Shown here piece after piece: positions 16,976 to 29,033 of a stretch of DNA of 32,000 bases. Numbering within the stretch: position 1 is the stretch's first letter; each line of letters starts with the position of its first letter. The notes under the pieces were generated by a model. It saw only the letters and a program-made list of their open reading frames with translations. It was not told the DNA's origin and made no database searches. The DNA comes from Mesoplasma florum L1. Its GTDB lineage: Bacteria > Bacillota_I > Bacilli_A > Mycoplasmatales > Mycoplasmataceae. The translations under genes and the position numbers were made by a program. The stretch is from NCBI RefSeq assembly GCF_000008305.1, contig NC_006055.1, positions 761,225-793,224 on the forward strand. The letters are read 5' to 3'.

Positions 16976-16980
16976 CTGCG

Positions 16981-17041
16981 CTTATAGTCTTTGGATGGGT
17001 CCTAAGGCAGGTCGACAACCCGTTATGTTGTCATGTATAAG
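16981..17041 (-). promoter_or_regulatory. Purine-riboswitch-fold aptamer (guanine/2'-deoxyguanosine class)
   Basis: Minus strand: CTTATA-CAT-GACAAC-ATAACGG-GTTGTC-GACCTGC-CTTAGGA-CCCA-TCCAAAG-AC-TATAAG. P1 is 6 bp, P2 is 6 bp with a 7-nt L2, and P3 is 7 positions with one A.A and a 4-nt L3. The GG of L2 is complementary to the CC of L3. J3/1 carries the specificity C. It sits in the 5' UTR of a nucleoside uptake/deoD operon. Confidence 0.8.
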
Positions 17042-17066
17042 TTTTTTTTATTCAATTGTTTGAAAT

Positions 17067-17072: not shown

Positions 17073-17107
17073 TCTTTTTTTATTTATAAATAAAAGCACA
17101 AATAAAA

Positions 17108-17125
17108 AAACACCTGTCGGCGTTT
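17108..17125 (-). terminator. Rho-independent terminator after the HU-like gene
   Basis: Minus-strand AAACGCC GACA GGTGTTT (7 bp including one G.U) followed by TTTTTTTATTT. It starts 8 nt after TAA 17133-17135. Confidence 0.65.
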
Positions 17126-17132
17126 TTATTAA

Positions 17133-18458
17133 TTATTTTTTAATTTCTTTTTTGACTTTTGTTAAACCTGTTCATTTACCTTTTGACATATTTTCTTTTA
17201 AATGTTTATTGGCTTTGAATTTAACTGTATTTGACGCAGGAATATCAATTGTTTCACCTGTTGATGGGTTAATACCTTTTTTAGCTTCCTTGTGTATTTT
17301 TGTTAGTTTTCCAAAATTTGAAATTAAAACTTCTTCATTATTTATAATTGCATTGCTCATGATTTCAAAAGCACTATCAACTACTTCTTTAACAGATTTT
17401 TTGCTAAATTCTGAATGAGTTTCTTCTAACTTAATTAAAAGATCTTTTTTAGAAACTTGATTGTAGTGTTTTTTAATAACATATTTTGATTCAGTTTTAG
17501 CTGTTGCTGCTACTTTAGTTTCTTCAACTTTAACTTCTTCAACTTTTTTAGCTACTGGTTTTTTAGCTACTGGTTTTTTAGCAACTACTTTAGCTTCTTC
17601 AACTTTTTTAGCCGCTGGTTTTTTAGCCGCTGGTTTTTTAGCAACTACTTTAGCTTCTTCAACTTTAGCTTCTTCAACTTTTTTAGCCGCTGGTTTTTTA
17701 GCTACTGGTTTTTTAGCAACTACTTTAGCTTCTTCAACTTTTTTAGCTGCCGGTTTTTTAGCTACTGGTTTTTTAGCAACTACTTTAGCTTCTTCAACTT
17801 TTTTAGCTGCCGGTTTTTTAGCTACTGGTTTTTTAGCAACTACTTTAGCTTCTTCAACTTTAACTTCTTCAACTTTAACTTCTTCAACTTTTTTAGCTAC
17901 TGGTTTTTTTACTTTTTTCTTAACTGGTTGTTTTGCTACAATTTCTTCTTCTAATTTTTCTTCTAATTCAATTGCTTCTTGTTTAATTTCTTCTTTAGTA
18001 ATTTCTTTAGTTTCTTCAATAGCAGTTGTTGTTCCTTTTTCTGAAAGAATCTTGTTAATTTTATTTTCTTTTACAAAACTCAATACTATTGAAACTACTA
18101 AAAAGATGATTCCAACAAGAGCTATTCAGTTAATTAATAAATCTCAAAAAATTGGCAACAAGAATGTACTATATGTTTCTGTTGTTCCAACAGTTGCAAC
18201 TAATTTGAATTGAGCAAATGATTTGAATCCCATTGGACCTGCTAAAAAATGACTTAGACCTTTATCTGTAAATCACACTGCATTTATGTGTTTACTTTCT
18301 ATTAATCCAGAGCCTGCAATTGTTTGTGCTCATTGTGATGTTCCATTTGTAGCTTGGTTTATAAGTTTAAATGCAAATATTAAAGCTATAAATAAAACTA
18401 AAAGAAATATTAAAGCAATGGTTCTTGTGTGCTTTTTATTTTTCATTTCGATTGACAT
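17133..18458 (-). CDS. Membrane-anchored HU/IHF-fold DNA-binding protein with lysine-rich tandem repeats (441 aa)
   Basis: The M of track ORF 17172-18083 is a TTG and its stop is a TGA. In code 4 the frame runs from ATG 18458 (SD AGGAGG) to TAA 17133-17135. Order of parts: two hydrophobic spans (TIALIFLLVLFIALIFAF; WIALVGIIFLVVSIVL), an acidic linker, (VEEAKVVAKKPxAKKPxAKK)x5, then the HU domain ...NFGKLTKIHKEAKKGINPSTGETIDIPASNTVKFKANKHLKE. Confidence 0.8.
17514..17905. repeat. In-frame tandem repeat array (60-bp units plus 15-bp sub-units) inside the HU-like gene
   Basis: 17701-17760 and 17761-17820 are identical, and the identity continues to about 17860. Earlier units (about 17544, 17604, 17679) differ by a few substitutions. 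15-bp tttaRcttcttcaac units flank the array. Confidence 0.95.
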
Positions 18459-18522
18459 GATTATGCCTCCTTCTTTTTTATATAATTATAAACAAATTAT
18501 TTTGCTGAGTGAACTTTTAGTG

Positions 18523-28923: not shown

Positions 28924-28945
28924 ATTTTAATTATAAACAAAAAAA

Positions 28946-29020
28946 CCGTGATACAAGACACATTCCCTTATAGCTGCTACCTTCCGGTCCTGACTCATTC
29001 GGGCGTAATCTTTATCACGG
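28946..29020 (-). ncRNA. ffs: Signal recognition particle RNA (small 4.5S-type)
   Basis: Minus strand: CCGTGATAAAGATTACGCCCGAATGAGTCAGGACCGGAAGGTAGCAGCTATAAGGGAATGTGTCTTGTATCACGG. A single long hairpin closed by CCGTGATA/TATCACGG, with the conserved domain IV GTCAGG-(A)CC-GGAA tetraloop-GG-(T)AGCAGC. A T-run follows it. Confidence 0.92.
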
Positions 29021-29027
29021 CAATATT

Positions 29028-29033
29028 ATTATA
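29028..29033 (-). promoter_or_regulatory. Candidate -10 box (TATAAT) for ffs
   Basis: Exact TATAAT on the minus strand, 7 nt upstream of the first base of the SRP RNA hairpin. Confidence 0.5.

What the first reader, a model, noticed from the sequence alone, without database searches (positions are those of the whole stretch)
17133..18458. HU-fold DNA-binding domain fused to a two-pass membrane anchor through a histone-H1-like basic repeat tether
Directly seen: under code 4 one 441-codon frame runs from ATG 18458 (AGGAGG SD) to TAA 17133, with no true stop. Its parts, in order:
- a basic N-terminus (MSIEMKNKKHTR)
- a hydrophobic span (TIALIFLLVLFIALIFAF)
- a loop of about 75 aa
- a second hydrophobic span (WIALVGIIFLVVSIVL)
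- an acidic E/K linker
- five 20-aa repeats VEEAKVVAKKPxAKKPxAKK
- about 90 aa that align with canonical HU/IHF (NFGKLTKIHKEAKKGINPSTGETIDIPASNTVKFKANKHLKE against GFGxF...RxGRNPxTGExIxIPAxxVxxFKxGKxLK)

Established knowledge: HU proteins are soluble and about 90 aa long. AKKP-type repeats are a DNA-binding feature of H1-like tails. Inference: the positive-inside rule puts both the repeat tether and the HU domain in the cytoplasm. The protein could therefore physically tether the nucleoid to the membrane. The gene lies about 14 kb from oriC, and this origin-proximal block has none of the parAB/noc genes that Firmicutes usually carry there. I do not know of a characterised transmembrane HU.
Basis: partly seen in the sequence, partly recalled or inferred. 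Interest (0 to 1): 0.8.

Follow-up and report, generated by a model that had tools for sequence, protein, structure and literature searches.

The report
Membrane-anchored HU protein of Mesoplasma florum
This gene (Mfl670 of Mesoplasma florum L1) really does encode a bacterial chromosome-packaging HU domain joined by a long lysine-rich linker to a conserved two-helix membrane module, so it probably holds DNA against the cell membrane; the protein is expressed, dispensable in culture, and its function has never been tested.

Summary
The window is the last 32 kb of the Mesoplasma florum L1 genome (genetic code 4). The frame 18458→17133 (minus strand) is gene Mfl670, 441 aa. In order it has a basic N-terminus, TM1, a conserved ~77-aa loop, TM2, an acidic segment, about five 20-aa K/A/P/V/E repeats, and a full-length HU domain (Pfam PF00216, E=5e-25).

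Published data show that the gene has its own promoter and a transcription start 23 nt upstream of the ATG. No internal start is listed. A terminator follows the gene, and the protein is present at about 520 copies per cell, against about 9,540 for the canonical HU, Mfl201. A transposon screen scored it non-essential.

The "anchor" is not a generic pair of helices. It is a conserved module restricted to Mesoplasma and Entomoplasma. It forms a small paralogous family: most members carry HU, and some instead carry, or add, an uncharacterised C-terminal domain. The membrane module and the HU domain are both under purifying selection; the repeat region is relaxed and varies in length.

The charge distribution across the family puts the HU domain in the cytoplasm. 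A nucleoid–membrane tether is therefore the best reading, but it is untested.

Membrane-anchored HU-fold proteins were already predicted in Bacteroidetes and Halobacteria in 2017. I therefore call this a new variant of a known kind, of moderate interest.

The parts
18485..18513 (-). Sigma-70-type promoter: -35 TTCACT (18513-18508), 17-nt spacer, -10 TATAAT (18490-18485)
   Evidence: Consensus scan, 10 of 12 matches. The published -10 box lies at genome 779708-779714, which is window 18484-18490, and is assigned to a primary gene TSS.
18480..18481 (-). Mapped transcription start site; the 5' UTR is 23 nt
   Evidence: Matteau 2020 TSS table and transcription units TU_381/TU_382: genome 779704-779705. 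No internal TSS row names peg.672.
18466..18471 (-). Shine-Dalgarno sequence AGGAGG, 7 nt upstream of the ATG
   Evidence: Read directly from the sequence.
17133..18458 (-). Mfl670 coding sequence, 441 aa under code 4, five TGA=Trp codons, stop TAA
   Evidence: Proteomics: 33 validated unique peptides, 56% coverage, about 522 copies per cell.
18423..18458 (-). aa 1-12, basic cytoplasmic N-terminus (MSIEMKNKKHTR, 4 K/R against 1 D/E)
18369..18422 (-). aa 13-30, transmembrane helix 1
   Evidence: Kyte-Doolittle maximum 3.04. AlphaFold2 helix 3-38, pLDDT 90-94.
18138..18368 (-). aa 31-107, conserved extracytoplasmic loop. Invariant across the family: K31 N34 W43 W62 F63 G74 P75 G77 S80 P102 D106. 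The model shows short helices and a beta-hairpin.
   Evidence: Alignment A3; AlphaFold2 model; low K/R density with net charge near zero.
18072..18137 (-). aa 108-129, transmembrane helix 2 (invariant W111 at its start)
   Evidence: Kyte-Doolittle maximum 2.89. AlphaFold2 helix 101-139, pLDDT 89-94.
17940..18071 (-). aa 130-173, acidic E/K segment (net charge -6) with the invariant core LEEKLEE (aa 165-171)
   Evidence: dN/dS 0.11-0.19 within the M. florum group.
17499..17939 (-). aa 174-320, lysine-rich K/A/P/V/E repeat linker (net charge +28). About five 20-aa units, with length variable between strains and species.
   Evidence: Tandem Repeats Finder; Pfam HC2 match, which is compositional; ortholog lengths 343-441 aa; dN/dS 0.47-0.67.
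17187..17453 (-). aa 336-424, HU/IHF-fold DNA-binding domain
   Evidence: PF00216 E=5e-25 over the full profile length. 40% identical to the canonical HU Mfl201. Best solved relatives are chains 5L8Z and 5OGU ('DNA-binding protein'), E=3e-16. The arm-tip N-P and the KFKAxK motif are conserved.
17133..17186 (-). aa 425-441 plus stop: family-specific basic tail carrying the conserved KWTG motif
   Evidence: Invariant K428 W429 T430 G431 L432. The motif is shared with paralogs P0060, P0061, P0065 and P0066.
17106..17127 (-). Rho-independent terminator
   Evidence: Scan. The published terminator lies at genome 778333-778347.

Best explanation
Mfl670 is an integral-membrane paralog of the nucleoid protein HU. 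Two transmembrane helices bracket a conserved ~77-aa external loop. Both termini face the cytoplasm.

The cytoplasmic part has three elements: a conserved acidic segment, a flexible lysine-rich linker of about 150 aa that resembles histone H1 tails, and an HU domain. The HU domain retains the DNA-binding beta-arm with its tip proline, the basic residues and the dimer core.

The domain most likely dimerises like other HU proteins and binds DNA with little sequence preference, helped by the lysine-rich repeats. With about 520 membrane-fixed copies per cell, this would keep part of the chromosome physically attached to the membrane.

What is shown: the architecture, transcription from the upstream start, translation, conservation, and purifying selection on both ends. 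What is inferred: the topology, dimerisation, DNA binding and the tethering role.
For: - **Single ORF identical to the annotated protein.**
- **HU domain.** Full-length PF00216 match. DNA-binding and dimer motifs are retained when compared with Mfl201 and the solved chain 5L8Z.
- **Two strong hydrophobic helices.**. The AlphaFold2 model of aa 1-140 has mean pLDDT 81 and pTM 0.71.
- **Topology.** In all 12 family members compared, the N-flank holds 3-10 K/R in 7-22 aa, and the first 20 aa after TM2 hold 3-7 K/R. The 65-77-aa loop holds only 3-8 K/R and has near-zero net charge.
- **Conserved architecture and synteny.** The architecture is conserved in M. florum strains and in at least six further Mesoplasma species with full-length proteins, and in M. 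grammopterae. The position directly downstream of gidA is conserved in M. entomophilum and M. corruscae.
- **Selection.** dN/dS is 0.07-0.18 for the membrane module and 0.10-0.13 for HU, against 0.47-0.67 for the repeats.
- **Expression.** The gene has its own promoter, TSS and terminator, and no internal TSS is listed. The protein is detected with 33 validated unique peptides at about 522 copies per cell.
- **Genomic background.** No ParA, ParB or Noc is named in the genome annotation, while SMC-ScpAB and FtsZ are present.
- **Family theme.** The same membrane module carries HU in at least five further paralog or ortholog types.
Against: - No direct evidence exists for membrane localisation, topology, DNA binding or any phenotype.
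- Transposon insertions are tolerated (scored NE), and JCVI-syn3.0 has no homolog. Any tethering role is therefore dispensable in rich medium.
- The published 56% peptide coverage could come from the C-terminal 312 aa alone, so the proteomics does not prove that the N-module is in the mature protein.
- Some paralogs keep the membrane module but lack HU (P0059, P0062, P0063). The core job of the family may therefore not be DNA binding.
- The strongly conserved external loop suggests a function beyond anchoring.
- About 520 copies is roughly 5% of the canonical HU level.
Confidence: 0.6

Rival explanations
1. Mfl670 is a membrane-integrated one-component regulator, working like ToxR or CadC. The conserved external loop senses a surface or environmental cue, or a partner protein. 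The IHF/HU-like domain then bends or occupies specific promoter DNA at the membrane and so controls transcription.
For: - The loop is the most strongly conserved non-HU part, with 11 invariant positions across distant paralogs.
- NCBIfam profiles rank IHF-alpha above HU, at 56-61 bits against 29-33 bits.
- Paralogs lie directly downstream of genes for large signal-peptide proteins, as locally acting regulators often do.
- By my own knowledge, Mollicutes have few classical transcription factors.
Against: - All IHF equivalog scores are far below their cut-offs, 56 against 111.
- No sequence-specific site or target operon has been identified.
- Mfl670 itself follows gidA and has no surface-protein partner.
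- The lysine-rich H1-like repeats point to bulk, non-specific DNA binding.
- The copy number of about 520 is higher than that of the two paralogs, 21 and 9.
Confidence: 0.15
2. The primary function lies in the conserved 2TM-loop module, for example docking, assembling or signalling with large secreted surface proteins. The cytoplasmic HU and lysine-rich part is an accessory that localises the module near transcribing DNA (a coupling similar to transertion) or simply adds bulk.
For: - Three family members keep the module but lack HU.
- Three paralog loci place the gene 4-46 nt after a gene for a 670-1198-aa protein with a signal-peptide-like N-terminus.
- The module has no homolog outside Mesoplasma and Entomoplasma in 1.84 billion representative proteins.
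Against: - The HU domain of Mfl670 is under selection as strong as that on the module.
- Mfl670 has no adjacent surface-protein gene.
- The upstream large proteins are only weakly related to one another.
Confidence: 0.12
3. The topology is inverted, so the HU domain and basic repeats are displayed on the cell surface. There they bind extracellular DNA, for nucleoside scavenging or for biofilm-matrix organisation of the kind attributed to DNABII proteins.
For: - In M. florum the gene lies just upstream of a 2'-dG-riboswitch-controlled nucleoside-uptake operon.
- By my own knowledge, extracellular HU/IHF proteins are known in biofilms.
Against: - The positive-inside rule is satisfied for N-in/C-in in all 12 members compared.
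- Exporting a 310-aa highly charged tail through a 2-TM hairpin without a signal sequence is unlikely.
- The adjacency to the nucleoside operon is not conserved in M. corruscae.
Confidence: 0.06
4. The fusion is an annotation or sequencing artefact, or only a short soluble product is made from an internal start.
For: Published peptide coverage cannot exclude an N-terminally truncated product.
Against: - The same uninterrupted frame is present in independent genomes of M. florum strains and at least eight other species.
- The Trp-TGA codons are conserved.
- dN/dS of the N-module is 0.07-0.18.
- The TSS lies 23 nt upstream of ATG 18458, a consensus SD is present, and no internal TSS is listed.
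Confidence: 0.03

Closest known systems
Canonical bacterial HU (M. florum Mfl201/HBsu-type; closest solved relatives are PDB chains 5L8Z and 5OGU, 'DNA-binding protein')
   Same: Same fold family (PF00216 over its full length). 40% identical to Mfl201. The arm-tip proline, the basic arm residues, the xFGK dimer motif and KFKAxK are all retained.
   Different: Canonical HU is about 90 aa, soluble, essential, and present at about 9,540 copies per cell. Mfl670 adds a 335-aa N-terminal extension with two TM helices and a KWTG tail, has about 522 copies per cell, and tolerates transposon insertion.
HU proteins with lysine-rich, histone-H1-like extensions (Mycobacterium HupB/MDP1 C-terminal PAKK repeats; Deinococcus radiodurans HU N-terminal extension), and H1-like proteins such as chlamydial Hc2
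   Same: An HU core is combined with K/A/P repeats. Pfam HC2 matches the repeats, E=3e-11. That these extensions increase DNA affinity and compaction is from my own knowledge.
   Different: Those proteins are soluble. In Mfl670 the repeats connect the HU domain to a membrane module and alternate with acidic VEE units. The HC2 and Hc2 matches are compositional: NCBIfam Hc2 scores 20 bits against a cut-off of 135.
Predicted envelope-anchored HU-fold proteins: Bacteroidetes HU-CCDC81–TM–FtsN/LysM proteins, and halobacterial HUs with N-terminal TM helices (Burroughs et al. 2017, PMC5499826)
   Same: The same concept: an HU-fold domain in the cytoplasm, fixed to the membrane, and proposed to tether the nucleoid to the envelope.
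   Different: The lineage is different (wall-less Mollicutes are not mentioned in that paper). The domain belongs to the classical HU clade rather than HU-CCDC81 (13 bits against a cut-off of 26). There is no peptidoglycan-binding domain. The conserved 2TM-loop module is distinct, and an H1-like linker is present. All of these cases remain computational predictions.
Functional analogues that bring DNA to the membrane: B. subtilis Noc (ParB-like, with an amphipathic helix), RacA–DivIVA, and ToxR/CadC-type membrane-bound DNA-binding regulators
   Same: A DNA-binding domain is held at the cytoplasmic face of the membrane. Noc and RacA are cited as parallels in PMC5499826.
   Different: There is no ParB, wHTH or other shared domain. 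The anchoring is integral (2 TM helices) rather than peripheral. No specific binding sites are known.

Membership tests
HU/IHF (DNABII) family, Pfam PF00216 | Profile match above the curated threshold that covers the whole domain | tested here: met
   88 bits against a cut-off of 22.4; aa 336-424 match profile positions 2-89 of 90. PHROG 379 also matches, E=1.5e-22.
HU/IHF (DNABII) family, Pfam PF00216 | Beta-arm with a tip proline and flanking basic residues; FGK dimer-core motif; C-terminal KFKAxK | tested here: met
   NFGKL…HKEAKKGINPSTGE…VKFKANK aligns with Mfl201 and 5L8Z. These positions are invariant in 11 orthologs.
HU/IHF (DNABII) family, Pfam PF00216 | Dimer formation and DNA bending or binding | not testable with these tools
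   Only monomer AlphaFold2 was available, and the HU part of the full-length model had low confidence.
IHF alpha/beta or HU alpha/beta equivalogs (NCBIfam) | Score above the equivalog cut-off | tested here: not met
   Best score is IHF-alpha at 56-61 bits against a cut-off of 111. HU-alpha/beta score 29-33 bits against 157-162.
Histone H1-like Hc2 (PF07382 / NF038052) | Homology beyond K/A/P composition | tested here: inconclusive
   Pfam HC2 scores 44.1 bits, just above its cut-off of 40. NCBIfam Hc2 scores 20 bits against 135. The other hits sharing this region are unrelated low-complexity proteins. I treat the match as compositional.
HU-CCDC81 clade (envelope-anchored HU of Bacteroidetes) | Match to the HU-CCDC81 profiles; TM helix plus FtsN/LysM domains | tested here: not met
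   HU-CCDC81_bac_1 scores 13 bits against a cut-off of 26, E=0.096. No FtsN or LysM domain was found.
Integral (bitopic hairpin) membrane protein with N-in/C-in topology | Two hydrophobic helices of TM length, with K/R enriched on the cytoplasmic flanks | tested here: met
   Kyte-Doolittle maxima of 3.04 and 2.89. AlphaFold2 helices with pLDDT around 90. Charge tally in 12 members. No dedicated TM predictor and no experiment was available.
Mesoplasma/Entomoplasma 2TM-loop module family (unnamed, defined here) | Profile match to the N-terminal 150 aa, with invariant K31 N34 W43 W62-F63 G74-P75-x-G77 S80 P102 D106 W111 | tested here: met
   Thirteen representatives among 1.84 billion proteins; the 12 that align over the module span E=2e-82 to 4e-7, the 13th is a marginal repeat-protein hit, and every named member is Mesoplasma or Entomoplasma.
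Noc/ParB-type nucleoid-membrane tethers | ParB/Spo0J DNA-binding domain plus an N-terminal amphipathic membrane helix | tested here: not met
   No ParB-type domain appears in the Pfam or NCBIfam scans.

The most novel reading that the evidence does not exclude
Mesoplasma and Entomoplasma have evolved their own family of chromosome-to-membrane connectors. Each has a conserved 2TM module with an external loop, linked inside the cell to HU and/or a second uncharacterised domain. Mfl670 is the main, constitutively expressed member.

In wall-less cells that lack ParABS and Noc, this family would couple nucleoid position or segregation to membrane growth. Through the external loop it might also couple it to surface proteins. 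That would be a bacterial counterpart of the chromatin tethers of the inner nuclear membrane, and a concrete molecular candidate for the classical membrane-attachment model of segregation.
Probability: 0.2. Interest if true: 0.75.

Novelty: new variant of a known kind. Interest (0 to 1): 0.5.

Why it matters
M. florum is a near-minimal model organism being prepared for whole-cell modelling and genome redesign. How such wall-less cells, with no ParAB or Noc named in the annotation, position and segregate their chromosome is unresolved. For the related minimal cell JCVI-syn3A, modellers state that no annotated protein attaches DNA to the membrane (PMC8339304).

Mfl670 is an expressed and genetically dispensable candidate for exactly that link, in an organism with working genetics. 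It is therefore directly testable.

It would also be the first membrane-integral HU-family protein to be characterised. The earlier cases are computational predictions. It would also define a new lineage-specific membrane module.

The importance is limited by three facts: the narrow taxonomic range, non-essentiality, and the absence of any functional data.

Tried and rejected
1. **Word-index homolog searches.** The searches with the HU domain alone (2 hits) and with the diverse N-module alignment (2 hits) returned almost nothing. They were uninformative. The exhaustive profile search was used instead.
2. **Genome-collection scan.** The scan used peptide patterns, one of which (FWDLLINW) contains Trp. 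These were probably back-translated as TGG, whereas Mollicutes use TGA. It recovered only M. grammopterae, plus two unrelated short HU genes in candidate-phyla MAGs.
3. **Full-length AlphaFold2 model.** The model was poor (pLDDT 46), so it was not used for fold searches.
5. **Proteomic coverage.** I tried to use the published coverage to prove that the N-module is in the protein. An in-silico digest shows that the observed 248 covered residues could all lie in aa 130-441, so this is inconclusive.
6. **C-terminal domain of orthologs and paralogs.** It has no Pfam or PDB sequence match. My impression that it resembles an HeH/SAP motif is from memory only and is not claimed.
7. **Hc2/H1 homology.** I treat this as compositional.
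8. **Phage origin.** PHROGs match only the HU domain.
9. **Literature.** No paper in the library mentions Mfl670, Mfl428 or Mfl456, and I found no characterised transmembrane HU.
Full report
**Identity of the locus**

The window has 27% G+C and reads as genes only when TGA is translated as Trp. The 441-aa product of 18458→17133 (minus strand) is 100% identical to the NCBI protein 'predicted histone-like DNA-binding protein [Mesoplasma florum L1]', which sits on a 793,224-bp contig.

Published gene tables place it at genome 778,356-779,682 (minus) as Mfl670 / peg.672 / YP_053910.1. The window is therefore genome 761,225-793,224, the 32 kb that ends at the origin next to rpmH-rnpA.

The genes of this stretch are, in order: rpmH, rnpA, yidC, tadA, dnaX, recR, tmk, holB, tilS, ftsH, gidA, Mfl670, bmpA-nupABC-deoD, a permease, pgsA, gidB, and so on. 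No parA, parB or noc is among them. None is named anywhere in the RAST annotation of the genome, whereas smc, scpA, scpB and ftsZ are.

**Check of the observation**

- The ORF has five in-frame TGA codons and a TAA stop.
- AGGAGG lies 7 nt before the ATG.
- Two segments reach 19-residue Kyte-Doolittle averages of 3.04 and 2.89.
- Between TM2 and the HU domain lie an acidic stretch (aa 130-173, net -6) and a basic stretch (aa 174-320, net +28). The basic stretch is encoded by a 60-nt tandem array with a 15-nt sub-period.
- Pfam PF00216 matches aa 336-424 over profile positions 2-89 of 90, E=5e-25.
- The HU domain is 40% identical to the canonical M. florum HU, Mfl201. Its closest solved relatives are the ~95-aa chains 5L8Z and 5OGU, E=3e-16.
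- The arm-tip Asn-Pro, the basic arm residues (Lys in place of Arg), the xFGK core and KFKAxK are retained, and they are invariant among orthologs.

**Evidence that the whole frame is one expressed gene**

Matteau et al. 2020 (PMC7745072) mapped a primary gene TSS at genome 779,704/5, which is window 18480/1. It has a TATAAT box and a 23-nt leader. They also report a monocistronic unit (TU_381, 1,387 nt), a read-through unit from gidA, and a terminator just after the stop codon. No internal TSS row names this gene. My own scans find the same promoter and terminator.

Their proteomics lists the 48.9-kDa protein with 33 validated unique peptides, 234 validated spectra, 56% coverage and about 522 molecules per cell. 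For comparison, Mfl201 has 9,543 molecules per cell.

An in-silico digest shows that this coverage could in principle arise from aa 130-441 alone. The proteomics therefore proves expression but does not prove that the N-module is present.

The comparative data fill that gap. The same uninterrupted frame, with conserved Trp positions, occurs in many M. florum strains and in M. entomophilum, M. tabanidae, M. coleopterae, M. chauliocola, M. melaleucae and M. grammopterae.

| Region | dN/dS (L1 vs M. grammopterae and vs M. entomophilum) |
|---|---|
| Membrane module | 0.07-0.18 |
| HU domain and tail | 0.10-0.13 |
| Repeat region | 0.47-0.67 |

The repeat region also varies in length, which gives proteins of 343-441 aa.

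**The anchor is a domain family**

A profile of the first 150 aa was scored against 1.84 billion representative proteins. It found 13 proteins; 12 align over the membrane module, the 13th is a marginal hit (E=7.6e-4) to an unrelated repeat protein, and every hit that carries a source name is from Mesoplasma or Entomoplasma.

Alignment of these distant members leaves invariant K31, N34, W43, W62, F63, G74, P75, G77, S80, P102, D106 and W111. Most of these lie in the loop or at the start of TM2.

An AlphaFold2 model of aa 1-140 built from this alignment is fairly confident (pLDDT 81, pTM 0.71). It shows a TM hairpin capped by short helices and a beta-hairpin. Foldseek finds no significant solved relative.

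Architectures vary within the family.

| Member | Organism | Architecture |
|---|---|---|
| P0061, 472 aa (positional ortholog after gidA) | M. corruscae / E. ellychniae | Module + HU + KWTG-type (TWTG) motif + extra ~70-aa C-terminal domain |
| P0065, P0066 | M. entomophilum; M. tabanidae | Module + HU only |
| P0064 | M. entomophilum | Module + HU + C-terminal domain |
| P0059, P0062, P0063 | M. tabanidae; M. florum strain | Module + coiled region + C-terminal domain, no HU |

The C-terminal domain has no Pfam or PDB match.

The HU domains of the family resemble one another more than the canonical HU: 39-52% identity to Mfl670, against 28-43% to Mfl201. They also share the motifs YxQVSK, NFGK and KWTG. 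This is consistent with one ancestral fusion followed by duplication.

The L1 genome itself lists four HU-domain genes: Mfl201, Mfl428, Mfl456 and Mfl670. Mfl428 (271 aa) matches the P0065 type by its neighbours (a DUF2130 gene and a very large gene) and has about 21 copies per cell. Mfl456 has about 9 copies per cell. I could not read Mfl456, so whether it has the membrane module is unverified. Three paralog loci place the gene 4-46 nt downstream of a gene for a 670-1198-aa protein with a signal-peptide-like N-terminus. Mfl670 has no such partner.

**Topology**

In all 12 members compared, the short N-terminal flank carries 3-10 K/R with 0-1 D/E. The 20 residues after TM2 carry 3-7 K/R. The 65-77-aa loop carries only 3-8 K/R, balanced by acidic residues.

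By the positive-inside rule (established knowledge), this places both termini in the cytoplasm, and with them the repeats and the HU domain. The first 40 residues contain no Cys, so there is no lipoprotein box. If TM1 were cleaved as a signal peptide, the C-terminus would still be cytoplasmic.

**Mechanism**

The best reading is a membrane-fixed HU dimer on a flexible, DNA-binding, H1-like leash of about 190 aa, which attaches chromosomal DNA to the membrane. If the architecture and topology hold, some physical tethering follows almost automatically. Whether tethering is the selected function is not known.

Four points argue for caution.
- Transposon insertions are tolerated, and JCVI-syn3.0 has no homolog. 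That transposon library also scores gyrA and secA as non-essential, so the call is soft.
- The strongly conserved external loop suggests more than anchoring.
- Some paralogs lack HU.
- Some paralogs pair with genes for surface proteins.

These points keep three rivals alive: a ToxR-like sensing regulator, a module whose main job is at the cell surface, and (unlikely) a surface-displayed DNA binder. The idea that oriC proximity or the lack of ParAB/Noc is functionally linked to the gene is only a correlation. The gene's position after gidA is conserved, but nothing indicates origin-specific binding.

**Comparison with what is known**

The protein is a member of the HU/IHF family by every sequence test. 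It is not an IHF or HU equivalog, and it does not belong to the HU-CCDC81 clade.

HU combined with lysine-rich repeats is known from my own knowledge: mycobacterial HupB and Deinococcus HU. HU-fold proteins fixed to the envelope were predicted by Burroughs et al. 2017 for Bacteroidetes (HU-CCDC81–TM–FtsN/LysM) and for Halobacteria (N-terminal TM helices), and nucleoid tethering was explicitly proposed there. Mollicutes are not mentioned in that paper.

I found no paper that mentions Mfl670, Mfl428 or Mfl456, and none that characterises a transmembrane HU. Public annotation calls the protein 'HU family DNA-binding protein'. [quoted passage not shown]

The 'non-core' label in Baby et al. 2018 arises because L1's peg.672 forms a singleton cluster. 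This is probably an artefact of the variable repeats, because orthologs are present in other strains.

**Verdict**

The feature is real, expressed and well conserved. It is a new, lineage-specific variant of a kind that had already been predicted (membrane-anchored HU), and its conserved membrane module has not been described before. The function is untested. Interest is moderate, at 0.5.

Noticed in passing
window 16980-17042 (-): A 2'-deoxyguanosine (2dG-I) riboswitch aptamer, Rfam RF01510, 73.7 bits. It lies immediately after the Mfl670 terminator and ahead of the bmpA-nupABC-deoD nucleoside-uptake operon. It is a known M. florum element and is not part of the Mfl670 gene.
   Followed up: partly
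window 28933-29028 (-): Small SRP RNA (Rfam RF00169, 49.2 bits), between ORFs at the tadA end of the window.
   Followed up: no
L009 8001-9419 (M. corruscae ortholog); also P0059, P0060, P0062, P0063, P0064: Orthologs and paralogs carry a conserved ~70-aa C-terminal domain (…ERSKIDGS…R.EL…NLRxxTKKEL…) that has no Pfam or PDB sequence match. Mfl670 and its closest orthologs lack it. It may be a second cytoplasmic binding module of the family.
   Followed up: partly
L004 4401-8834; L007 5975-9227; L010 5673-9347: Paralogs of the 2TM module, with or without HU, each lie 4-46 nt downstream of a gene for a large protein (670-1198 aa) with a signal-peptide-like N-terminus. DUF285 or DUF2130 genes are often nearby. 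This suggests two-gene cassettes that link a surface protein to the membrane module.
   Followed up: partly
M. florum L1 genome outside the window (Mfl201, Mfl428, Mfl456): L1 is annotated with four HU-domain genes. Copy numbers per cell are about 9,543 (Mfl201), 522 (Mfl670), 21 (Mfl428) and 9 (Mfl456). Whether Mfl456 has the membrane module could not be checked.
   Followed up: partly
Baby et al. 2018 Data Set S1/S3 (PMC5893858), entry mfl670: Mfl670 is labelled 'non-core' because L1's peg.672 forms a singleton ortholog cluster (4092). Orthologs clearly exist in other strains, so the label is probably an artefact of the variable repeat region.
   Followed up: yes
Matteau et al. 2020 Dataset EV6 as held in the library (PMC7745072, supplementary file 9): The last two columns (conserved domains, amino-acid sequence) are out of register with the gene rows. 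For example, the DnaA row shows the HPr sequence. Only the numeric columns should be used per gene.
   Followed up: no
window 17944-17964 (aa 165-171, LEEKLEE): Within the otherwise variable acidic segment, a seven-residue core (LEEKLEE) is invariant in all 11 orthologs aligned. It could be a dimerisation element or an autoinhibitory, DNA-mimicking element facing the basic repeats.
   Followed up: no
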